A DNA stretch of 64,000 nt from assembly GCA_028909515.1 (NCBI GenBank), contig GCA_028909515.1_4811.1; one strand, written 5' to 3'. Shown here piece after piece: positions 13,070 to 62,626 of this stretch (positions are counted from its first letter, which is position 1; every line of letters begins with the position of its first letter). The translations under genes were made by a program, and so were the position numbers. The notes beneath the pieces were generated by a model. That model saw only the letters and a list, made by a program, of their open reading frames with translations, was not told the origin of the DNA and made no database searches. The DNA comes from a phage.

Positions 13070-13159
13070 CCACCCTCAAATAAGTATTGTGTATTATATC
13101 TAATGAAAAAAACTTAGGCAAACAATAATTATGGTTTGAATATGTATAACAACCGATAT

Positions 13160-13455
13160 AGCCGCGCCTTTATTAGTGTGATACGGATGATACGGATAAA
13201 ATGAGGCGTATTTTTATCCGTATCGGTGTATAAGCCGCGCTATCACTGGTGTGCTACGGATGATACGGATGATACGGATACTTTTCATATATAAGAGTTT
13301 ATAAAAAAATAAAATTAAATTAGATATATAATTTTAAATTAATTTATTTGAATTCCTATATAGTACGGCGGCAACGCGTATCATCCGTATCATCCGTAAG
13401 ATTCTTTTGAAAACAACAACTTACTTGATACGGATGATACGTCATTATACGTATA
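13160..13455. repeat. iteron-flanked AT-rich element, copy 1
   Basis: Direct and inverted copies of TACGGATGATACGGAT (13179-13198, 13216-13226, 13255-13280, inverted 13377-13400, 13427-13445) around an ~85-bp AT-rich core; homologous to 29030..29365. Confidence 0.7.
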
Positions 13456-13632
13456 AAACTTGCGGCAATCCTTTGCCGATGAATTCAGTGAATATTAAAT
13501 AGCACTCCTGCCACTAAAACGCCAATCAACATCGAGTCATAAACAGCCCATTTCCAAGAAAGCAAAGAGTTGCAATTAATATTTCGCACTTTAACATAAC
13601 GTGACTGAATAATCTTTTGCATAACTTCCTCT

Positions 13633-23875: not shown

Positions 23876-23903
23876 AAGGCGCTGAAAAGCGCCTTTACTT
23901 TAT
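23876..23903 (+). terminator. rho-independent terminator after tail fibre gene
   Basis: AAGGCGCT-gaaa-AGCGCCTT then TACTTTAT. Confidence 0.6.
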
Positions 23904-23949
23904 GCGCTATTAAGTTATACTCATTATACGTTAACAAGTGAGGTGTTTT

Positions 23950-26361: not shown

Positions 26362-26427
26362 AATATTCTCCTAGTTAGTCGGGAGGGTAGCGACCTATTC
26401 GCTACCTCATCCCCTCTCGATATAAAC

Positions 26428-26456
26428 ATTATAGTCTTAGTGTACGAATAAGTAAA
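26428..26456 (-). promoter_or_regulatory. sigma70-like promoter for acidic paralog A
   Basis: Minus-strand TTTACT-N17-TATAAT with internal TACACT. Confidence 0.55.
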
Positions 26457-26466
26457 GCACTTTTCG

Positions 26467-26854: not shown

Positions 26855-26898
26855 AAAAAAAGATAAAATAATTTATCTCATTTTTATCGAAAAAGTGC

Positions 26899-26926
26899 TT
26901 TACTTTTTTCTACACTATATTATAAT
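26899..26926 (+). promoter_or_regulatory. sigma70-like promoter for acidic paralog C (divergent from B)
   Basis: GTGCTTTACTT-N-TACACT-N-TATAAT; -35 TTTACT, 16-bp spacer. Confidence 0.55.
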
Positions 26927-26994
26927 GTACTCATATCGGGACGGGATGAGTTAACGAATAGGTCGTTAACGCCTCTCCCAACTAGGAGTTTAAA

Positions 26995-29029: not shown

Positions 29030-29365
29030 TGTACTGTTTGATACGTATAAAAGAAATCCATCCCTTTCGCCGCTTGCTATGCAAATCAATGACTTAGCCG
29101 CTGCTGGCTGGTTGAAGCGTATCATGACGTATCATCCGTATTGCCGCAAGTCTTTGTTTTTACTTATATCTTACGGATGATACGTATAAATATAAGTTTA
29201 GTATAAGTATGAGGATGTAGAAAAAAATTAATTTAAATTAATTCAAAATGGAGTTAATTAATTTTCTGGAATTCTATATATATTATGTTTGCACCCGTAT
29301 CATCCGTATCAGCGTATTTTTCCTTATAAATCAATAGCCCAATGATACGTCATGATACGTATGAA
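29030..29365. repeat. iteron-flanked AT-rich element, copy 2
   Basis: TACGGATGATACG-type iterons at about 29117-29140 (inverted), 29171-29187, 29294-29314 (inverted), 29342-29362 around an AT-rich core sharing 'AAAAAAATTAATTTAAATTAATT' and 'GAATTCTATATA' with copy 1. Confidence 0.7.
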
Positions 29366-29855: not shown

Positions 29856-29880
29856 CAAACAAAAAGGGCCAATCGGCCCT
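29856..29880 (-). terminator. rho-independent terminator ending the minus-strand early array
   Basis: Minus-strand GGGCC-gatt-GGCCC followed by TTTTTG. Confidence 0.6.
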
Positions 29881-33367: not shown

Positions 33368-33669
33368 AAAACGCCTCCAAAAGTCGCAACACGAATGCCG
33401 CGACGCTCAAACGTTAACATAGGATTAATACCCGTCGCGCAGGTGATGTAAGCGTCATCGGCGACAAGGTCATAACCGCCTGCGCAAAGAATGAAGGTCG
33501 TGTCGCTGTTCTTCAAGAGCATAACAGCAGCTGCCGCACCTTTCTTGTTCTTAAAGAAGAATACTGGTTCACCGCCTTCTTGCGTCTCTTTGAACTCCTG
33601 AATAGCGCCGCACTCTACTGCGGCCTGCATCACCTTCAACAACTTGCTCTTCATCGCTTCGGTGCTCAT
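33364..33669 (-). CDS. hypothetical protein
   Basis: Start set at 'MSTEAMK' behind strong RBS AGGAGAGG; promoter/terminator composite upstream. Confidence 0.5.
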   Translation of the reverse strand: MSTEAMKSKLLKVMQAAVECGAIQEFKETQEGGEPVFFFKNKKGAAAAVMLLKNSDTTFILCAGGYDLVADDAYITCATGINPMLTFERRGIRVATFGGVL

Positions 33670-33697
33670 AATAACCTCTCCTTTGCTTGATGAAGTA

Positions 33698-33745
33698 AGT
33701 ATAATACAGACAAATAAAAAGGCAAGCAATTAGCTCACCTTTTTG
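33698..33745 (-). promoter_or_regulatory. terminator-promoter composite element (copy 1)
   Basis: Minus strand: AAAAAGGTGAGC-taatt-GCTTGCCTTTTT hairpin whose 3' arm supplies -35 TTGCCT, 16-bp spacer, -10 TATACT, then TACTTCATCAAG. Confidence 0.5.
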
Positions 33746-33747
33746 AA

Positions 33748-34008
33748 TTAAATCTGATCGGCTTCTTCGTGTAGACCAACTGACCTTAACTTACGCCGCA
33801 AGTAAGCTTTCTTTTCACACTCGCGTCCGGCTGGCGTGACGCGGTACTTTAATGTGTTCTCTCTATTCTTGCGTCGGTTGTTCTCGTCGAGTAGCTCTAC
33901 CAGCGCCTTTGCGTCGTCGAGTGTTAACACCACGGGCCGCGACCCATTAACGGCCTGTCGAAGCTTCCGCGCGGCAAGGGCCAGTGGCGTCATCGGTCCC
34001 TTATTCAA
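33748..34008 (-). CDS. hypothetical protein
   Basis: 86-aa basic ORF. Confidence 0.45.
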   Translation of the reverse strand: MNKGPMTPLALAARKLRQAVNGSRPVVLTLDDAKALVELLDENNRRKNRENTLKYRVTPAGRECEKKAYLRRKLRSVGLHEEADQI

Positions 34009-34397
34009 GCCAACTCCTTATTCATCGGCGTGATGGACAAGACCTTTACTTCAGTGATGTCGCGGTTGTATTCGCGCTTGATTTGAAGAATCTGGGATTG
34101 GATGCGCGCGATGAAGTGCGGCGTGACTCCTTCCTTAACGTTAATCCAGGCCGCAAGCTGCATTGAGTCGATGTCGCTTCTCATCACCGTTGGGCAGTTG
34201 ATGGTACTTGGTGCACCGTTCGCGCCGTAGGCCAGTTGGGAATCATAAGCCGAATACCTGAACGCAACCAGGAACATTCGCTCTTCAAGCTGGCTTTCGC
34301 TTCTTGGATTCTTATCGCAACCAGACATGTGCTGCACAAACTCTTCATGCGGAAGGTGCATGACGTCGTGGCAATAAGGGCAACGTTTCATTCTCAT
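34005..34397 (-). CDS. hypothetical protein, possible zinc-binding (CxxC/H cluster)
   Basis: 130 aa; N-terminal 'CPYCHDVMHLPHEEFVQHMSGC'. Confidence 0.45.
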   Translation of the reverse strand: MRMKRCPYCHDVMHLPHEEFVQHMSGCDKNPRSESQLEERMFLVAFRYSAYDSQLAYGANGAPSTINCPTVMRSDIDSMQLAAWINVKEGVTPHFIARIQSQILQIKREYNRDITEVKVLSITPMNKELA

Positions 34398-34630
34398 TTT
34401 GCATACTCCATAGCATATCGCTGCAACTTGAATGCAGCCTTGTTTAGTTGCTTGTGTCTTGCGTACAAGCGCTCACGTTCTTCTTCAGGGCAATCGGCAC
34501 GAAGAATAGACATGGCAATACTTGACATGGCATTAAGGGTGCGCTGAAAGGCAGACACCATGCGCAACTCATTGCGCTTATTAAAAGACAACTTACCCAG
34601 CGCGGCATTCATAATTGCACCTCGACACAC
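34394..34630 (-). CDS. hypothetical protein
   Basis: 78-aa ORF, 4-nt overlap. Confidence 0.45.
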   Translation of the reverse strand: MCRGAIMNAALGKLSFNKRNELRMVSAFQRTLNAMSSIAMSILRADCPEEERERLYARHKQLNKAAFKLQRYAMEYAK

Positions 34631-34926
34631 GATTCACTGGCCTTGAAGCTCCAGCCTTCCAGACCGACTTCGCCGCAACAGCGCACCTTTGCCCAGCCAG
34701 TCATGAGCCATTGGTGATACTTTTCGAAGTATGTCGGCTTTTCTGAGTAACAATGAACAAGGCCGTTATCGTCAATGGCCACGTAACGCGTCCAAGGTGC
34801 AACGGGTACAACTACGTCGGGGTGGCCTTCTGGCCAAGGCTTGGTGTGTACAGCTGTGTTCAAGTCTATGTTTAACACGCTTCCTAACCGCTCGTCTTGT
34901 TCCTTGTCGATGCCTAAGTAAATCAT
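34609..34926 (-). CDS. hypothetical protein
   Basis: 105-aa ORF; RBS GAGGTG; promoter/terminator composite upstream. Confidence 0.5.
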   Translation of the reverse strand: MIYLGIDKEQDERLGSVLNIDLNTAVHTKPWPEGHPDVVVPVAPWTRYVAIDDNGLVHCYSEKPTYFEKYHQWLMTGWAKVRCCGEVGLEGWSFKASESCVEVQL

Positions 34927-34958
34927 AATTCACCTCACTTGTTCGCCTTGATGAAAAG

Positions 34959-35006
34959 AGTATAAATATTGATAAAAGAAAAGGCAAGCATTTAGCTCAC
35001 CTTTTG
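34959..35006 (-). promoter_or_regulatory. terminator-promoter composite element (copy 2)
   Basis: Minus strand: AAAAGGTGAGC-taaat-GCTTGCCTTTT hairpin, -35 TTGCCT, 17-bp spacer, -10 TATACT, then CTTTTCATCAAG. Confidence 0.5.
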
Positions 35007-35010
35007 ATAT

Positions 35011-35205
35011 TCATTTCTGCTTTATGTATTCATCAACTATGTCGATTATGTATCGATGCTCAACAAGCCACTCAAGCATACTTTCCGGTCTTACGTCGCC
35101 GTTTGGAACGCTTCCATAAAGCGTGCAACTGGCATAACAATCCATGAAGTTCTTTATTGCAGCGGCCTTATCAAGAGTTTTCTGTATGTCTAGTTTAACA
35201 CTCAT
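35011..35205 (-). CDS. hypothetical protein
   Basis: 64-aa ORF, RBS AAAGGTGA. Confidence 0.4.
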   Translation of the reverse strand: MSVKLDIQKTLDKAAAIKNFMDCYASCTLYGSVPNGDVRPESMLEWLVEHRYIIDIVDEYIKQK

Positions 35206-35223
35206 AAATCACCTTTTTGATAT

Positions 35224-35556
35224 TCATTTTACATAGTGGAGTAGATCAATCTCTATCTGATCACGCGTCCTTGTTATCTTTGTATCACCCGTCCGGTGAG
35301 AGAATCGATAGATGGTCAACTCTCCGTCACCTCCCCTATCGAACTTCATGTTGGCTAGTCGACAAGCATATATTGCATTAAGCTTATTACCATAAGACAA
35401 GATGTTAAATGTCAAAACGGTATTGCCCATCCTCACATTCTCTTTTATGCACCTCTTTAAGAAGTAATAGGACTCGGCAAAAGCGTTTTGTCTTTTCCAG
35501 ATTTCTTTAACCTTCTCACGCTCATGCGCGGCGAGTATCTGATCACGGGTCATCAC
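35224..35556 (-). CDS. hypothetical protein
   Basis: 110-aa ORF. Confidence 0.45.
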   Translation of the reverse strand: MMTRDQILAAHEREKVKEIWKRQNAFAESYYFLKRCIKENVRMGNTVLTFNILSYGNKLNAIYACRLANMKFDRGGDGELTIYRFSHRTGDTKITRTRDQIEIDLLHYVK

Positions 35557-41283: not shown

Positions 41284-41341
41284 AAATCACCTCTGCTTCA
41301 GTTCATAAAATGATTATAGTTACTATGAAAGTAAAAGCAAA

Positions 41342-42424
41342 CTATTTTATGCCACCTGCACGACGATTTATCATGTCAAGTTGATTCTCAATATAAGGCA
41401 TGACGATTGCTTCAACAAAAGCGGTCCAACCTTTCTTGCCTTCCCCTTTACGGTGACAGTCGTGGGCGCAACCGAACACAAATTCATGTTCTGCACCAGG
41501 GATAGGGCCGCGAAAGTAAGCGCCATACGGGTCGCCGTTGGTGTGTTCTTCACCCCAAGGACAGATTATGCGGCACTTGCCTGACATGTTCTCGATGACG
41601 TCACCATCAGACCCTTCACCCATCTTGCTGCGCGCTAGAATCTGCTGGGCTATTTTATACCAAACAGCATCATACTTGTATTCATCGACGTCAATTTGAA
41701 TCTCACGCTTTTGCGGCATGACGACGTGAAAGCCAAATGCCTGACAAATGTCTTCGATGGTGTAGCGCAATGAGTAGTCTGCATGGACAAGTCGGCAGCG
41801 GAACGGGTCGCCGTTCTCATCGACATATTTATAGGGGCCGTCATGAGTCACACGCTTGTTGTTGATGCACCCAGGAACACGGCCCACGCGCGTTACGTCT
41901 TTAATCGTGTTGTCGCCGCCCTTCTTGAGTACCATGTTAACGAAAGACCCAAGGAACGCTTTGAACTGAATAAGATGGTCAATCGGTTCTTTAAAGAAGT
42001 ACCAAAGCTGGTGGTTGTTCGGTGAAGTCTCGACGATGACAGTCGGCTTCAGTCGCTCAAAAAAGAATTCCAAATCTAAATCGCCTTTGGACCCTTTACC
42101 GTGACCGATGTCGTCGACCATCATCGCCATGCCGTGACCAAAGGCCGACTCTGTACGCCAGTATCGCATCTCACCCGTCTTTGGGTTGGGAGACTTACGC
42201 ATTGAACTGATGCAAGCATAGCCGTTTTGGTGCTGCATGAGCGGCTTTCCCAACTTCCAAGGCTTAGGCCAGAAGCTGCTGTTAATCTTCTTGCCGCGCT
42301 CGTCAGTCTGCACCGTTGCTTCAGGCGCAAACACCGTCATGACGCGCTCATCTTCTGGAATGCCTCTTTGGAGTTCTGTTAAAAACTCTTCGATTATTTT
42401 TGCTTCTTCTCTTAAACTAGCCAT
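41342..42424 (-). CDS. primase-polymerase-like replication protein (AEP-type, tentative)
   Basis: 360 aa; acidic 'VDDIGHG' and 'NNHQLWYFF' resemble AEP primase motifs I and II; C-terminal Cys/His cluster; first gene after a strong TTGACT-N16-TATACT promoter. Confidence 0.4.
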   Translation of the reverse strand: MASLREEAKIIEEFLTELQRGIPEDERVMTVFAPEATVQTDERGKKINSSFWPKPWKLGKPLMQHQNGYACISSMRKSPNPKTGEMRYWRTESAFGHGMAMMVDDIGHGKGSKGDLDLEFFFERLKPTVIVETSPNNHQLWYFFKEPIDHLIQFKAFLGSFVNMVLKKGGDNTIKDVTRVGRVPGCINNKRVTHDGPYKYVDENGDPFRCRLVHADYSLRYTIEDICQAFGFHVVMPQKREIQIDVDEYKYDAVWYKIAQQILARSKMGEGSDGDVIENMSGKCRIICPWGEEHTNGDPYGAYFRGPIPGAEHEFVFGCAHDCHRKGEGKKGWTAFVEAIVMPYIENQLDMINRRAGGIK

Positions 42425-42453
42425 CTTTCTTTCCTTTGGTGATCAATACCTGC

Positions 42454-42481
42454 AGTATAATATTGAGTGATACAAAGTCAA
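42454..42481 (-). promoter_or_regulatory. sigma70-like promoter for the minus-strand early array
   Basis: Minus-strand TTGACT-N16-TATACT upstream of the primase-like gene, RBS AAAGGAAAG. Confidence 0.55.
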
Positions 42482-42584
42482 CAATATTTACCATTTAGTT
42501 CACAATTTCGATTTACTTTGCTTTATACTATATCTGCAATTATACTATCAGAAAATATTTCCGCACTAACAAAGGTCGCCTGAA

Positions 42585-45120: not shown

Positions 45121-45147
45121 GACCCACACTTGTTGTGGGTCTTTTTT
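45121..45147 (+). terminator. rho-independent terminator
   Basis: GACCCACA-cttgt-TGTGGGTC followed by TTTTTT. Confidence 0.65.
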
Positions 45148-45226
45148 CGTCTGTACTAAATAGAAATGACTTGTTGCTGTAAAATAATTTAGCTATTATA
45201 CTTCTCATATCACCCACAAAGGACAA

Positions 45227-46222: not shown

Positions 46223-46287
46223 TTTGCTTTCTTCTTCAATGTGCGTATACTTTAATCATTGAAGCAGAACTCATAGAGGAAACGAAA

Positions 46288-48420: not shown

Positions 48421-48449
48421 TTTACTTGTGCGTTTCGATGAGTTATATT
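48421..48449 (+). promoter_or_regulatory. sigma70-like promoter with conserved downstream box
   Basis: TTTACT-N17-TATATT followed by TACCTCATCGAAACGAA. Confidence 0.5.
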
Positions 48450-48485
48450 TACCTCATCGAAACGAAGTCCAAAAAGGATAAATAA

Positions 48486-55253: not shown

Positions 55254-55282
55254 TTGACTTGTCACGGAAGATGAGTCATAAT
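55254..55282 (+). promoter_or_regulatory. sigma70-like promoter with conserved downstream box
   Basis: TTGACT-N17-CATAAT followed by TACTTCATCGAAACGAA. Confidence 0.5.
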
Positions 55283-55314
55283 TACTTCATCGAAACGAAA
55301 CAGAGGAATACAAA

Positions 55315-55578
55315 ATGGTACGCATCCTTGAACGTTACAAAAATGAAGCTACTGGTGCAATCGCTTTCAAACGTCTTTTGGTCAAAGAAATTGACGGGAT
55401 GTTCCGCGTTGTTAAAGAGTTTGATTATGGCAACGGTGCTGGGGTGAATACCGTTATTATGCCTGGCATCAAGGCATATAAAACATTGAAAGGCGCTGAG
55501 AAGGCTTTGGCGGCTTGGAAACCTGAACGTTATCAAATGACCCGTGTTGAAGGGCTAATGCAAGAAGGTAAAATATGA
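55315..55578 (+). CDS. hypothetical protein
   Basis: 87-aa ORF behind promoter TTGACT-N17-CATAAT. Confidence 0.5.
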   Translation: MVRILERYKNEATGAIAFKRLLVKEIDGMFRVVKEFDYGNGAGVNTVIMPGIKAYKTLKGAEKALAAWKPERYQMTRVEGLMQEGKI

Positions 55579-59214: not shown

Positions 59215-59288
59215 GACACTAGATAAATAATTGATGCGGATAATCTATCGCGTCGTTTTATAGAATTTAATATACAGTGTATACATAA

Positions 59289-59315
59289 AGCCGGAAATCT
59301 CCGGCTTTTCTTTTA
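59289..59315 (+). terminator. rho-independent terminator after ligase gene
   Basis: AGCCGGA-aatc-TCCGGCT followed by TTTCTTTTATTT. Confidence 0.6.
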
Positions 59316-59390
59316 TTTACCTTTCGCCTTATTTACTTTCAAAACCTTCGGCCTATACTATTAATATTCGTAATCAAAAGGTGGATTATA

Positions 59391-60185: not shown

Positions 60186-60830
60186 TTACATAACTGCTAG
60201 TGCATCCTTGTAACGCTTCCTTCGCAAATCCCCATGGTTAGCCGTATTCGGCGCGGCCCCGTTAATCCGCTTAACGGTTGAATCAAAATTTCCTGCATCA
60301 GCAAGAGGAATACAGCCGCTATTCTTAAAGAACCATGCCGCGCTGTCAGCGATGTATTTTGGTTCAGTCAGAATATCAGGATTGTTCAATGCGTCATAGC
60401 CTGATTGACGTGTATATTCCGCATAGTTCGCTTTGCCAGTCAGCTGAATGGCACCACGGCCACGGTACTTCCAACCGTCGCCCGATGCTACCGAACCGTT
60501 GCCCATGCGGTTTGCATATGTATTATTGGCGATTTCCATTGGTTTACGGGCAATCGACAATGCCAAGGAGTTGGGTGCACCGCCGAAACGACCGCTGGCG
60601 CTGTAACGGCTAGGCCATGTATTAGCAAGACCTTGAGCGGAATAATTCAAGTTTTCCACAAATGTCTTCAGGCTGCCTGTTTCCACTCCTACGTTTGCAA
60701 GCAACGCCGCGATGGCATTCTTGCTTTTGATTCCGTAGTGCTCACAAGCCTGCTTGAAAGGGTCCACCCATTTCTCTGCAACATCCATGCTGCATCCGGT
60801 CCCTTTAGATATTACGTTTGCATTAATCAT
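60186..60830 (-). CDS. endolysin, glycoside hydrolase family 19-like
   Basis: 'ANVGVETGSLKTFVENLNYS' and 'GDGWKYRGRGAIQLTGKANY' match GH19 catalytic-region patterns. Confidence 0.7.
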   Translation of the reverse strand: MINANVISKGTGCSMDVAEKWVDPFKQACEHYGIKSKNAIAALLANVGVETGSLKTFVENLNYSAQGLANTWPSRYSASGRFGGAPNSLALSIARKPMEIANNTYANRMGNGSVASGDGWKYRGRGAIQLTGKANYAEYTRQSGYDALNNPDILTEPKYIADSAAWFFKNSGCIPLADAGNFDSTVKRINGAAPNTANHGDLRRKRYKDALAVM

Positions 60831-60838
60831 AAATCACC

Positions 60839-62626
60839 TTATGCGCTTCTGTACCAGCCGTTCAAGACGACATATCGCGGCAGAGTTGAAACAGCCGTTG
60901 GGACGGACTGTCCTGCATCGCCAGTATTTCCGACCACATCGTGAGTGTGAGCGGGAAGGGTATAGCTATGGCTGTGATTGCCAGCGTAATTTATATTCAA
61001 CCCATGGGTGTGTGACCCAGAAGATTGGATATTGTGGACGTGGTTGCCGTTAGTCGAGGTGTTGTATTTGTAGTTATCCCAGTCGCCGCCCTTTCGACTG
61101 CCGAAGTTGTTGTGCGTATTGTCATACACGCCATACCGCGCATCATTCGTATTCGATTCACCCCAGCTACTGTCATGGTGGTGGTTGCCTGCTGAATCCA
61201 TTCCGTGCACGTGAGCACCGTTTTGACTGGTATCGCCTGTGTGGTTATGGTTGCCTGCGCCTCCAGTGGTGTTGGACCACGGACCACTCTGTCGCGTAGT
61301 TATGTTCACGCTGTGATTGTGGAGAGGAAGCATGGCGGCGGTAAGGGTGACAGAGTCCGCGCCGCCAGTGGCAAGACCGTTTCGTGCCGTGCCGGATGTT
61401 CTGATGACCATGTTATCAGGCAATCTGGTCCACACCTGTCCATAAGCGCCAAGCTTGGTGTTTGGGTTGGTGCCATTGGTCAGGAATCGAGTCTCGCCGA
61501 CTTCGAATACATCACCCATGGTAATCAACTTTTCAGCAAGCGCATCAAGCTGTCTTTTGGTGACAAACTGCTGCGGCTCAGTAGCATCCACGCCGATTTG
61601 CGCCGCGCCGAATGCTTGAAGAAGACGCCAAACGTTGCCGTCATAAATAATAGTAAAAGGAAGAAGCCCGACGATGGACCCTGCTGGCAGCTCGCCGCCG
61701 TCGAATCCAAGGACTGCAACTTTGTTTGCACCAATGGTCACGGTAACAGGTCCGGTAGTTGTGACATCATTGACAATTGTCAGGCGACTACCTGCTGACG
61801 GCGGCCATGCATAACCTGCCGGAACGGTAAGGATTATATCTTGTGCACCTTTACCTGATGCAAGATTCGGCGTGCCGATTTGCACGTCTTGAACAGTTGC
61901 ATTTTGAATCCAGGCACTCCAAGCACCAGAAGTGTAAGAGCGGGTGAAAACATATCGGTTCATTGACGTGTATTGTTGCAGGGCGAAAGTCTGCGCATCA
62001 ACCTGCCAAGCGCAAACCTGGAGACGACCTGCAACCTTCGTCGCACCAACCGCGTTCGGGATGTTAGAGCAGAGAGCGGCAACGGTGTCAGATTGAATGA
62101 CAATAGTTGTGGAAGTCGTGATATTATCAAAGTCCACAAAGTTTGAAATCAGTCCGCGAACAAAATACGGGTTTTGCGCATCGCCGCCAGCAGGCATAGG
62201 AATATATTTTCTCGCTTCGCTAGGCAGCGTCAATTCCTGCCAAGATTCCGTTTCGCCGTTAGCTGGGACTGCGCTGGTGTTGCCGTCAACCACGCTCTGG
62301 AAAATGCGCCATTCAGGCGCTGAAGGGGTGCCAGAGTTGCTGACAACGATGGCATTTTTCGGGTATCCATCTGGCTTCAAGTCAGACGAGAAATACTGTT
62401 GAGCGCCGTGGTCCTGGATGAACATAAGGTTGTCGGTGATCAGATTCAGCAACCAGTTCATCGACTCACGTTCAACGGCTTTCGCGGCGACGTTTCCGGC
62501 TTCCAGGGCAAGTGCGTAGTCAGGGGTGTAGCCGCGCTGGAAGTTTACATAACCGCTTGGACTTGCATCCGGCACCACGGATACATCACCGCTTTGCGCG
62601 AAAGGTCTATTAATAAGTGTTGGCAT
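60839..62626 (-). CDS. distal tail fibre / receptor-binding protein with His-rich tip
   Basis: Start set at 'MPTLINRPF' behind RBS AGAGGAA; C-terminal HxH-rich segment 'GNHNHTGD...HVHGMDSAGNHHHDS...NGNHVHNIQSSGSHTHG...HSHSYTLPAHTHD'. Confidence 0.7.
   Translation of the reverse strand: MPTLINRPFAQSGDVSVVPDASPSGYVNFQRGYTPDYALALEAGNVAAKAVERESMNWLLNLITDNLMFIQDHGAQQYFSSDLKPDGYPKNAIVVSNSGTPSAPEWRIFQSVVDGNTSAVPANGETESWQELTLPSEARKYIPMPAGGDAQNPYFVRGLISNFVDFDNITTSTTIVIQSDTVAALCSNIPNAVGATKVAGRLQVCAWQVDAQTFALQQYTSMNRYVFTRSYTSGAWSAWIQNATVQDVQIGTPNLASGKGAQDIILTVPAGYAWPPSAGSRLTIVNDVTTTGPVTVTIGANKVAVLGFDGGELPAGSIVGLLPFTIIYDGNVWRLLQAFGAAQIGVDATEPQQFVTKRQLDALAEKLITMGDVFEVGETRFLTNGTNPNTKLGAYGQVWTRLPDNMVIRTSGTARNGLATGGADSVTLTAAMLPLHNHSVNITTRQSGPWSNTTGGAGNHNHTGDTSQNGAHVHGMDSAGNHHHDSSWGESNTNDARYGVYDNTHNNFGSRKGGDWDNYKYNTSTNGNHVHNIQSSGSHTHGLNINYAGNHSHSYTLPAHTHDVVGNTGDAGQSVPTAVSTLPRYVVLNGWYRSA

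What the first reader, a model, noticed from the sequence alone, without database searches (positions are those of the whole stretch)
33698..35006. Recurrent terminator-promoter composite elements inside the early operon
Two intergenic sites (33698-33745 and 34959-35006) carry the same ~50-bp unit on the minus strand: an A-tract, hairpin AAAAGGTGAGC-N5-GCTTGCCTTTT whose 3' arm provides a -35 TTGCCT, a 16-17 bp spacer, -10 TATACT and a conserved TTCATCAAG start region. Plus-strand promoters at 48421 and 55254 share the related downstream box TAC(C/T)TCATCGAAACGAA. This suggests a phage-specific promoter grammar and built-in attenuation points segmenting the early transcript.
Basis: seen in the sequence. 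Interest (0 to 1): 0.45.

Follow-up and report, generated by a model that had tools for sequence, protein, structure and literature searches.

The report
Repeated terminator-promoter cassettes in a coliphage
Two near-identical 60-base signals inside a block of small unknown genes of a Wifcevirus coliphage most likely stop one transcript and start the next; they sit where relatives gain or lose genes, resemble the "PeSL" cassettes of T4-like phages, and are ordinary in kind though not previously described for this genus.

Summary
The window is a Wifcevirus (ECML-117/WFC-like) E. coli myophage. Two minus-strand copies (35005..34947 and 33743..33686) share an A-tract, an 11-12 bp hairpin, a U-tract, TTGCCT-16/17-TATACT and TTCATCAAG, followed by a ribosome-binding site and ATG. 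The hairpin pattern occurs nowhere else in the window. Both copies are present in all 29 Wifcevirus records and are about 88% invariant, against about 22% for the flanking genes. GenBank records for WFC and WFH already annotate the hairpins as putative terminators. The best reading is a composite intrinsic terminator plus sigma-70 promoter, the same architecture as PeSL cassettes of T4-type phages. All four element borders are gene insertion, deletion or replacement points in relatives, though other gene junctions nearby are breakpoints too. No transcript data exist, so termination and initiation are inferred. The "phage-specific grammar" idea fails. The downstream box, TTCATC(G/A)AAACGAA three bases after the -10, recurs in early-type promoters of T1-like, T4-like, Jedunavirus, Kylevirus and phi80-type phages, upstream of unrelated genes. 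It matches the start context of mapped strong phage promoters (T7 A1, lambda PL). This cross-family start box is the least expected result and is unexplained. Overall this is a new member of a known kind, of modest interest.

The parts
34924..35016 (-). Element E2 (upstream copy), whole conserved cassette: AT-rich lead-in, hairpin, promoter, start box, RBS and ATG of the 105-aa gene
   Evidence: Sequence. 85 of 95 columns are invariant in 10 genomes, against 22% in the flanks.
34979..35005 (-). E2 terminator-like hairpin AAAAGGUGAGC-UAAAU-GCUUGCCUUUU, followed by CUUUUAUC
   Evidence: RNA fold -13.6 kcal/mol, z -4.4, against -8.7 on the other strand. The homologous site is annotated as a terminator in WFC.
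34959..34987 (-). E2 promoter-like TTGCCT-17-TATACT; the -35 lies in the 3' arm of the hairpin
   Evidence: invariant in relatives.
34947..34955 (-). E2 start box TTCATCAAG; predicted transcription start at A 34952
   Evidence: Invariant in relatives, while the following 5'UTR varies. Same CATC start context as T7 A1 and lambda PL.
33667..33748 (-). Element E1 (downstream copy), whole conserved cassette up to the ATG of the 101-aa gene
   Evidence: Sequence. 70 of 80 columns are invariant in 11 genomes, against 23% in the flanks.
33716..33744 (-). E1 terminator-like hairpin AAAAAGGUGAGC-UAAUU-GCUUGCCUUUUU, followed by AUUUG
   Evidence: RNA fold -14.7 kcal/mol, z -4.8, against -9.7 on the other strand. 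The homologous site is annotated as a terminator in WFC.
33698..33725 (-). E1 promoter-like TTGCCT-16-TATACT
   Evidence: conserved in relatives.
33686..33694 (-). E1 start box TTCATCAAG; predicted transcription start at A 33691
   Evidence: Invariant in relatives, while the 3 nt before it vary.
35209..35229 (-). Half element AAATGAATATCAAAAAGGTGA. It is a direct repeat of 35016..34997 and the pair brackets the 213-bp cassette carrying the 64-aa gene
   Evidence: The cassette is absent in Bas99, EC150, Ro157lw and ECML-117, with breakpoints at 35209 and 35016.
48421..48466 (+). Promoter-like TTTACT-17-TATATT plus TAC-CTCATCGAAACGAA; a perfect 12-bp inverted repeat flanks the -10 (48431-48464)
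   Evidence: Read-through RNA would fold at -21.7 kcal/mol, z -5.8.
55254..55299 (+). Promoter-like TTGACT-17-CATAAT plus TAC-TTCATCGAAACGAA, the cross-family start box
   Evidence: Shared with unrelated phages.
23880..23937 (+). A third, non-identical terminator-promoter composite: GGCGCT-GAAA-AGCGCC, then TTTACT-16-TATACT; its leader AACAAGTGAGGTG is identical to that of E2

Best explanation
E1 and E2 are duplicated, strongly conserved terminator-promoter cassettes of the PeSL type. They lie inside a long minus-strand array of small ORFan genes in a Wifcevirus coliphage. Shown directly: each cassette carries an A-tract, an 11-12 bp hairpin and a U-tract, read on the coding strand, and the hairpin's 3' arm contains a -35-like TTGCCT. 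A -10-like TATACT follows 16-17 bp later, then the box TTCATCAAG, a ribosome-binding site and a start codon. Inferred mechanism: host sigma-70 RNA polymerase arriving from upstream promoters partly terminates in the U-tract. That U-tract lies in the spacer of the internal promoter. New transcripts start at the A of TTCATC (predicted 34952 and 33691). The array is thereby cut into separately dosed units, and the internal promoters are shielded from read-through. Second role, partly shown: because the cassettes are far more conserved than the genes around them, they act as linkers at which relatives insert, delete or replace small genes.
For: Anatomy and non-chance repetition. Strand-specific hairpin: both stem mismatches are G.U or U.G wobbles on the minus-strand RNA, so the fold is -14.7 and -13.6 kcal/mol (z -4.8 and -4.4) on that strand against -9.7 and -8.7 on the other. 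The chance that two mismatches are both wobble-compatible on a given strand is about 0.03. Independent annotation: both homologous hairpins in phage WFC are marked 'putative transcriptional terminator, -10.10'; the WFC genome paper cites the terminator predictor ARNold. Conservation: two copies are present in each of the 29 Wifcevirus records. 70 of 80 and 85 of 95 columns are invariant across 10-11 genomes, against 22-23% in the flanking genes; the variable positions fall in the loop, in the 3 nt after the -10 and in the 5'UTR beyond the box. Start context: mapped starts are T7 A1 GATACT-TACAGCC-A(+1)TCGAG and lambda PL GATACT-GAGCAC-A(+1)TCAG; a T5 early promoter (annotated 'promoter' in the T5 records) reads TATAAT-AGA-TTCAT. 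Analogue elsewhere: an Acinetobacter phage has the same hairpin core, with one A-U to G-C compensatory change, followed by TTGCCC-17-TATAGT in an intergenic gap. Gene exchange at all four borders: the 64-aa gene cassette is bracketed by a 20/21-nt direct repeat that includes the hairpin's 5' arm. EC150 has an extra gene right after the E2 start codon. RCIP0319 has a 1.45-kb insertion of three genes right before the E1 hairpin. WFC, Bas100, SP13 and RCIP0319 have an extra or replaced gene right after the E1 start codon. In total 4 of about 12 breakpoint sites lie at element borders: P=1e-4 by length, P=0.03-0.05 per gene junction. The surrounding genes are ORFans, as in PeSL-rich regions (PMC2839356, PMC4122927).
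Against: There are no transcript 5' or 3' end data for any Wifcevirus, so neither termination nor initiation is demonstrated. The promoter-like hexamers score only 9 of 12, and such matches are as common in shuffled sequence (33 found against 28 expected). Promoter status therefore rests on conservation and context. The stem core is weak: two wobbles and only 4 G-C pairs. Termination may be partial or negligible. Invariance of the stem means there is no covariation within the genus. The spacer is also invariant, which a plain promoter does not require and which hints at an extra constraint. The breakpoint enrichment is modest, because many ordinary gene junctions in 31-36.3 kb are breakpoints too. 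No genome has lost the 1.26 kb between the copies. There are only two copies, against the dozens typical of PeSLs.
Confidence: 0.6

Rival explanations
1. The elements are terminators only. The hairpins end upstream transcripts, and the downstream -35/-10-like hexamers are non-functional AT-rich sequence kept for other reasons such as the RBS context or U-tract extension.
For: Public records annotate only terminators here. 9-of-12 hexamer matches are no more frequent than in shuffles.
Against: About 11 further genes follow E1 on the same strand, up to the terminator-like hairpin near 29870, and would need a promoter if termination is efficient. TATACT, TTGCCT, their spacing and the start box are invariant in both copies in all genomes examined, while the adjacent 5'UTR varies. 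The same -10 plus N3 plus TTCATC register occurs in promoters of many phages and matches mapped starts.
Confidence: 0.15
2. The imperfect DNA palindrome overlapping the -35 is an operator. A phage or host dimeric protein binds it to switch these two promoters off or on, and the RNA hairpin is incidental.
For: The stem sequence, part of the loop and the spacer are invariant, which is more than a terminator or promoter needs. The same stem core recurs in an unrelated Acinetobacter phage. Another promoter in the window (48431-48464) has a perfect 12-bp inverted repeat around its -10.
Against: Both palindrome mismatches are exactly the kind that keep RNA pairing on the coding strand (P about 0.03). 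A U-tract follows directly. The same hairpin core also occurs as a plain terminator between convergent genes with no promoter. No candidate DNA-binding protein was identified among the neighbouring genes.
Confidence: 0.1
3. The hairpins are RNA processing or stability elements rather than terminators: 3'-end protectors after endonucleolytic cleavage, or RNase sites that segment a polycistronic early RNA as in T7.
For: They are stable, strand-specific hairpins at gene boundaries inside a long co-directional array.
Against: The stems are only 11-12 bp. From general knowledge, RNase III substrates such as the T7 early sites need about two helical turns. The canonical A-tract/hairpin/U-tract layout is that of intrinsic terminators. 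This reading does not explain the conserved -35/-10.
Confidence: 0.08
4. The pair is a neutral remnant of a duplication and has no present function.
For: There are only two copies, and they lie 1.26 kb apart in the same orientation.
Against: The elements are about 88% invariant against about 22% for the flanks across 10-11 genomes, and both copies are retained in every one of the 29 records.
Confidence: 0.03

Closest known systems
PeSL (promoter-early stem-loop) cassettes of T4-type phages (Arbiol et al. 2010, PMC2839356; Comeau et al. 2014, PMC4122927)
   Same: Both are composites of a terminator stem-loop, a sigma-70-like -35/-10, a Shine-Dalgarno sequence and a start codon in short intergenic gaps. 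Both lie among small ORFan genes, are more conserved than their surroundings, and adjoin insertions, deletions and replacements between close relatives. Degraded 'half' copies also occur in both. The nt-1/KVP40 stem consensus A3-4G3-loop-C3T3-4 resembles A4GG...CCT4 here.
   Different: The host phage is a Wifcevirus, not a T4-type phage. There are only two homologous copies, plus at least three non-homologous terminator-promoter junctions, rather than dozens. The stem's 3' arm overlaps the -35 instead of lying just upstream of the promoter. No relative shows a deletion between the two copies, and mini-circle formation is untested.
Canonical intrinsic (Rho-independent) terminators; the WFC and WFH GenBank records annotate both homologous hairpins as putative terminators
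   Same: A stem with a short loop and a U-tract, preceded by an A-tract; the homologous sites in WFC carry a terminator annotation of -10.10.
   Different: The stem core is weak, with two G.U wobbles that make it one-directional. The U-tract doubles as the promoter spacer.
Strong early promoters of coliphages recognised by host RNA polymerase (a T5 early promoter, which from memory is PN25; T7 A1; lambda PL)
   Same: AT-rich upstream region; -35 of TTGCTT, TTGACT or TTGCCT type; -10 of TATAAT, GATACT or TATACT type; start at the A of a C-A-T(C) context 6-7 nt after the -10.
   Different: Activity here is not measured. The -35 is embedded in a hairpin.
Moron-type or linker-mediated mosaicism of tailed phages (conserved boundary sequences at gene junctions; from general knowledge)
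   Same: Small accessory genes carrying their own promoter and/or terminator are inserted between conserved neighbours, and short conserved junction sequences are reused.
   Different: Here the conserved junction is itself a duplicated regulatory unit within one genome.

Membership tests
PeSL cassette | A stem-loop with terminator properties directly upstream of the promoter | tested here: met
   Hairpins at 35005..34979 and 33744..33716, each followed by a U-tract. They overlap the -35 rather than merely abutting it.
PeSL cassette | Sigma-70-like -35 and -10 about 17 bp apart | tested here: met
   TTGCCT-16/17-TATACT. This is met by sequence only; activity was not measured.
PeSL cassette | A Shine-Dalgarno sequence and the start codon of the downstream gene at the 3' end | tested here: met
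   AAGGAGAGG then ATG at 33669..33667; GTGAGGTG then ATG at 34926..34924.
PeSL cassette | Many copies per genome, concentrated in hyperplastic ORFan regions | tested here: inconclusive
   There are two homologous copies only, both within an ORFan array. At least three further terminator-promoter junctions of different sequence exist.
PeSL cassette | Association with insertions, deletions or replacements between close relatives | tested here: met
   All four borders are breakpoints in at least one relative. The enrichment is modest: P=0.03-0.05 per junction.
PeSL cassette | Recombination between copies that deletes or circularises the intervening genes | tested here: not met
   All 29 records keep both copies. 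The mini-circle assay (inverse PCR) cannot be run with these tools.
PeSL cassette | Described host group: T4-type phages | tested here: not met
   The window is a Wifcevirus.
Intrinsic terminator | A stable stem, a 3-8 nt loop and a U-rich tail immediately 3' of the stem | tested here: met
   11-12 pairs, a 5-nt loop, and tails UUUUUAUUUG and UUUUCUUUUAUC.
Intrinsic terminator | Transcript 3' ends in the U-tract | not testable with these tools
   No Term-seq or RNA-seq data for Wifcevirus turned up in the literature searches.
Sigma-70 promoter | Primary transcript 5' end 6-8 nt downstream of the -10 | not testable with these tools
   Predicted at 33691 and 34952 by analogy with T7 A1 and lambda PL.

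The most novel reading that the evidence does not exclude
The start box (-10, then 3 nt, then TTCATC(G/A)AAACGAA) may be a previously unrecognised functional module of host-polymerase early promoters. It is shared, or horizontally exchanged, among unrelated phage families: Wifcevirus, Drexlerviridae, the T4-like Slopekvirus, contigs of KVP40-like length, Jedunavirus, Kylevirus and phi80-type lambdoids. It often sits in cassettes where a terminator hairpin overlaps the promoter. Such cassettes might let polymerase released at the U-tract re-initiate at the overlapping promoter; post-termination recycling of E. coli RNA polymerase has been shown in vitro (PMC6978380, PMC6978322).
Probability: 0.2. 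Interest if true: 0.6.

Novelty: new member of a known kind. Interest (0 to 1): 0.33.

Why it matters
Wifcevirus phages are little studied; a previous study cited in PMC11990801 reported unusually fast replication for two isolates. A map of their transcription punctuation would help interpret their ORFan-rich, presumably early region. It would also supply compact, insulated expression cassettes for phage engineering. The elements extend the PeSL idea, in which conserved terminator-promoter units serve as gene-exchange linkers, beyond T4-type phages. The cross-family start box, if functional, would point to a shared requirement of early phage promoters for host RNA polymerase. That requirement is directly testable by mutagenesis.

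Tried and rejected
- The Rfam gathering search of the whole window gave no family, and ARAGORN found no tRNA or tmRNA.
- The IMG/VR scan for TATACTNNNTTCATCAAG returned mostly chance hits. Only the ECML-117 contig carried the pair, and a few unrelated promoters had the same box.
- The IMG/VR scan for the hairpin core found only Wifcevirus contigs, one Acinetobacter phage and one convergent terminator. That is too few to claim a family.
- The search for related loci with the gene downstream of E2 returned only Wifcevirus contigs.
- Full-text literature searches for the box sequences returned only unrelated primer matches. A search for Drexlerviridae promoter motifs gave nothing relevant.
- PHROGs and Pfam gave no function for the ten flanking proteins.
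- An RNase III site was rejected because the stems are too short.
- I rejected an antisense promoter on the plus strand. The reverse complement contains TATAAT, but the best -35 candidate has an 11-nt spacer (read).
- I looked for an inverted repeat pairing the start box with the spacer in E1 and E2, as exists at 48431-48464. There is none (read).
- Inverted repeats around the -10 at 46226, 41285 and 55254 are not significant by folding (z -1.0 to -1.8).
- The four-gamete-like pattern across E1 hints at recombination: the upstream flank type seen in WFC occurs with both downstream gene types. The sample is too small to count as a test.
Full report
**Identity of the window.** A 3-kb query around the finding matches 29 phage records at 85-91% identity. 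All are Wifcevirus or ECML-117-like E. coli and Shigella myophages of 66-72 kb, including ManiWeber_Bas99, SP13, F13, ECML-117, WFC and WFH. The finding lies in a long array of small minus-strand genes running from about 42424 down to about 29898. The array begins at a divergent promoter region (42425-42584) and ends at a strong terminator-like hairpin near 29870. Ten proteins around the elements have no Pfam or PHROG function. That the array is 'early' is plausible but not shown.

**The observation.** Both units are present as described.
- E1: AAAAGGTGAGC-TAATT-GCTTGCCTTTT at 33743..33717, TTGCCT-16-TATACT at 33725..33698, and TAC-TTCATCAAG ending at 33686. AAGGAGAGG and ATG (33669..33667) follow.
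- E2: the same hairpin with loop TAAAT at 35005..34979, TTGCCT-17-TATACT at 34987..34959, and CTT-TTCATCAAG ending at 34947. GTGAGGTG and ATG (34926..34924) follow.
- The hairpin pattern matches only these two sites even with three mismatches allowed, against none in 100 shuffles. Neither arm has any further close copy.
- The plus-strand box TACYTCATCGAAACGAA is exact at 48450 and 55283. Those two promoters share 30 nt at 90% identity.

**The hairpin.** Both stem mismatches are U.G or G.U wobbles on the minus-strand RNA.
- The hairpins fold at -14.7 and -13.6 kcal/mol (z -4.8 and -4.4) on the coding strand, against -9.7 and -8.7 on the other strand.
- The chance that two mismatches are both wobble-compatible on a given strand is about 0.03.
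- Each hairpin is preceded by an A-tract and followed by a U-rich tail.
- In the WFC GenBank record both homologous sites are annotated 'putative transcriptional terminator, -10.10'; no promoter is annotated there. The WFC genome paper cites the terminator predictor ARNold and does not discuss promoters.

**Conservation.** Every one of the 29 Wifcevirus records carries two copies.
- In 10-11 genomes, 70 of 80 columns (E1) and 85 of 95 columns (E2) are invariant from the AT-rich lead-in to the ATG. The flanking coding sequence is 22-23% invariant.
- The few variable positions fall in the loop, in one spacer position, in the 3 nt between the -10 and the box, and in the 5'UTR beyond the box.
- The stem never varies apart from one SP13 substitution, so there is no covariation within the genus.
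- An Acinetobacter phage (phiAbaA1) has AAGGGTGAGC-TAAT-GCTTGCCCTT followed by TTGCCC-17-TATAGT in an intergenic gap. It has the same core and the same two wobbles, with one A-U to G-C compensatory change.
- The same core also occurs as a plain terminator between convergent genes in a 39.8-kb viral contig. With about two chance hits expected by my own estimate, this remains a lead only.

**Promoter status.** Matches of 9 of 12 to the consensus hexamers are as common in shuffled sequence. The argument therefore rests on context.
- The hexamers, their spacing and the box are invariant in both copies.
- Other intergenic promoter-like sites in the window use the same -35 types (TTGCTT, TTTACT, TTGACT, TTGCCT) and -10 types (TATAAT, TATACT), often after AATA(A/G)T.
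- About 11 genes follow E1 before the next strong terminator.
- The start context matches promoters with annotated or known starts. T7 A1 reads GATACT-TACAGCC-A(+1)TCGAG, with the start annotated at 498. Lambda PL reads GATACT-GAGCAC-ATCAG, where the A corresponds to coordinate 35582, the PL start as I recall it.
- A T5 early promoter sequence that I recalled as PN25 matches T5 at 100%. There it is annotated 'promoter' and reads TTGCTT-17-TATAAT-AGA-TTCAT.
- By analogy the predicted starts are 33691 and 34952.

**Relation to PeSLs.** PeSLs of T4-type phages are composites of a terminator stem-loop, a sigma-70-like promoter, a Shine-Dalgarno sequence and a start codon. They lie in ORFan-rich hyperplastic regions next to insertions, deletions and replacements, and they recombine to form mini-circles (PMC2839356; PMC4122927). 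E1 and E2 share that architecture. I tested the link to gene exchange by comparing the window with eight relatives.
- The 64-aa gene (35011-35205) is absent from Bas99, EC150, Ro157lw and ECML-117. In the window it is bracketed by a 20/21-nt direct repeat, AAATGAATATCAAAA(A)GGTGA, which is the AT-rich lead-in plus the hairpin's 5' arm.
- EC150 has an extra gene directly after the E2 start codon, followed by a degenerate second copy of the RBS-start segment.
- RCIP0319 has a 1.45-kb insertion of three genes directly before the E1 hairpin.
- WFC, Bas100, SP13 and RCIP0319 have an extra or different gene directly after the E1 start codon. In WFC, Bas100 and SP13 the displaced gene is preceded by AGGGTGAGCTATG, which echoes the 5' arm.
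- In total 4 of about 12 breakpoint sites in 5.3 kb lie at element borders. That gives P=1e-4 by length but only P=0.03-0.05 if breakpoints are confined to gene junctions.
- No genome has lost the segment between the copies.
- Membership is therefore partial. The architecture and the indel association are met. Copy number is inconclusive. Inter-copy deletion and the T4-type host group are not met.
- Three other terminator-promoter junctions of different sequence exist at about 23880, 45121 and 59287. The first shares its 13-nt leader with E2.

**The 'phage-specific grammar' claim.** The 43 nt from the -10 of the 55254 promoter to its ATGG match 338-427 phage records. I inspected instances from the following groups.
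- Drexlerviridae: haarsle, AHS24 and 12469I.
- The T4-like Slopekvirus PMBT1.
- Jedunavirus 1611E-K2-1.
- Pantoea phage Kyle.

In every inspected case the box TTCATC(G/A)AAAC(G/A)A lies exactly 3 nt after a -10-like hexamer. The downstream proteins are unrelated, except for the Jedunavirus homologue.

An exact scan of IMG/VR for TANNNTNNNTTCATCGAAACGAA found 76 stretches in 64 distinct contexts; a reversed-box control found 9. By inspection, nearly all real hits have a -35-like hexamer upstream and an RBS plus ATG 10-30 nt downstream. One hit precedes a tRNA gene. One contig has the length of KVP40 (244,834 bp), and there the box follows a terminator plus TTGCAT-17-TATTAT.

E. coli strains carrying the phi80 prophage have TTGACC-17-TTTAAT-TAC-TCCATCGAAACGAAAC near an S24 peptidase (cI-type repressor family) gene. 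A boxA-like GCTTTTTAACAA lies downstream, which suggests an early lambdoid promoter. In many T1-like and Slopekvirus instances a terminator hairpin sits directly upstream of the -10. Overlap of terminator and promoter is therefore widespread.

The box is thus a cross-family feature of early-type, host-polymerase promoters and is not a Wifcevirus signature. I found no description of it by sequence search. I cannot say whether it acts in start-site choice, promoter escape, as an RNA 5' end, or as half of an operator. At 48431-48464 it is the right half of a perfect 12-bp inverted repeat around the -10, which would fold at -21.7 kcal/mol (z -5.8) in read-through RNA.

**Mechanism.**
- Shown: the anatomy, strand asymmetry, duplication, conservation, position at gene-exchange points and analogues.
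- Inferred: partial intrinsic termination of upstream transcripts in the U-tract, and re-initiation by host sigma-70 polymerase at TTCATC. This would insulate the transcription units and set their dosage.
- Speculative: because the release site lies inside the promoter spacer, polymerase that stays on the DNA after termination could re-initiate there. Such recycling has been observed in vitro for E. coli polymerase (PMC6978380, PMC6978322).
- Rivals: terminator only, an operator, an RNA processing or stability hairpin, or a neutral remnant. These are less consistent with the wobble pattern, the U-tracts, the invariant hexamers and the conservation.

**Verdict.** The finding is real and its core interpretation is reasonable but unproven. 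It is a new member of a known kind, namely PeSL-like terminator-promoter cassettes in a non-T4 genus, and part of it is already annotated in public records. The cross-family start box is the more unexpected by-product and deserves a dedicated test.

Noticed in passing
window 55277-55319; loci L129 1500-1545, L130 1525-1560, L131 1195-1240, L132 1200-1247, L133 1200-1245, L134 1200-1250, L218 1476-1530; IMG/VR loci L135-L210: A start box, TTCATC(G/A)AAACGAA exactly 3 nt after a -10, is shared by early-type promoters of unrelated phage families (T1-like, Slopekvirus, a contig of KVP40 length, Jedunavirus, Kylevirus, phi80 prophage). It lies upstream of unrelated genes and once upstream of a tRNA. 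There are 76 exact IMG/VR hits against 9 for a reversed-box control. Its function is unknown.
   Followed up: partly
window 48431-48464 (+): A perfect 12-bp inverted repeat, CGTTTCGATGAG/CTCATCGAAACG, flanks the -10 of the promoter upstream of the FabG-like reductase gene. Read-through RNA would fold at -21.7 kcal/mol (z -5.8). It could be an operator or a read-through-specific hairpin. Some T1-like promoters carry a similar upstream inverted half (GTTTCGGTGAG).
   Followed up: partly
window 26362-26466 (-) and 26880-26994 (+): A divergent pair of near-identical units, each a promoter (TTTACT-16/17-TATAAT) followed by a structured 5'UTR. The inner stem differs between the copies by compensatory changes (GTAGCGA/TCGCTAC against GTTAACGA/TCGTTAAC) around a conserved loop ATAGG. 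There is no Rfam match.
   Followed up: no
window 13070-13484 and 29181-29323: Two AT-rich intergenic regions carry arrays of CCGTATCATCCGTATCA and its complement TACGGATGATACGGATGATACG, around AAATTAATTTAAATTAATT-like tracts. These are iteron-like repeats and may mark a replication origin or a packaging-related site.
   Followed up: no
L211 604-655 (Acinetobacter phage phiAbaA1) and L212 2170-2200: The same hairpin core, GGTGAGC-loop-GCTTGCC with the same two wobble pairs, occurs in an Acinetobacter phage followed by TTGCCC-17-TATAGT. It also occurs as a plain terminator between convergent genes in a 39.8-kb viral contig.
   Followed up: partly
window 41285-41344 (-) and 46226-46285 (+): Two promoter-like sites (TTGCTT-16-TATAAT and TTGCTT-16-TATACT) share the downstream motif TGAAGCAGA and have short inverted repeats around the -10. 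Folding is not significant (z about -1).
   Followed up: partly
window 23880-23937 (+), 45121-45205 (+), 59287-59360 (+): Further terminator-promoter junctions with different hairpins. The junction at 23880 places TTTACT directly after the stem and shares the 13-nt leader AACAAGTGAGGTG with E2.
   Followed up: partly
IMG/VR loci such as L136, L154, L169, L193 and phage loci L129, L131, L134: Drexlerviridae and Slopekvirus promoters with the start box share an upstream motif, AATAGCA(C/T)-TTTTTG(T/C)TAAA or AATAGCAC-GAATTGCTAAA. Where I counted (three instances), the TTG(T/C)TA hexamer lies 22 nt from the -10, too far for a canonical -35, with a hairpin in between.
   Followed up: no
window 35203-35215 (-) and 60828-60840 (-): An identical ribosome-binding segment, AAGGTGATTTATG, precedes two unrelated genes. 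This suggests a favoured RBS, so short 'half-element' matches should be read with caution.
   Followed up: no
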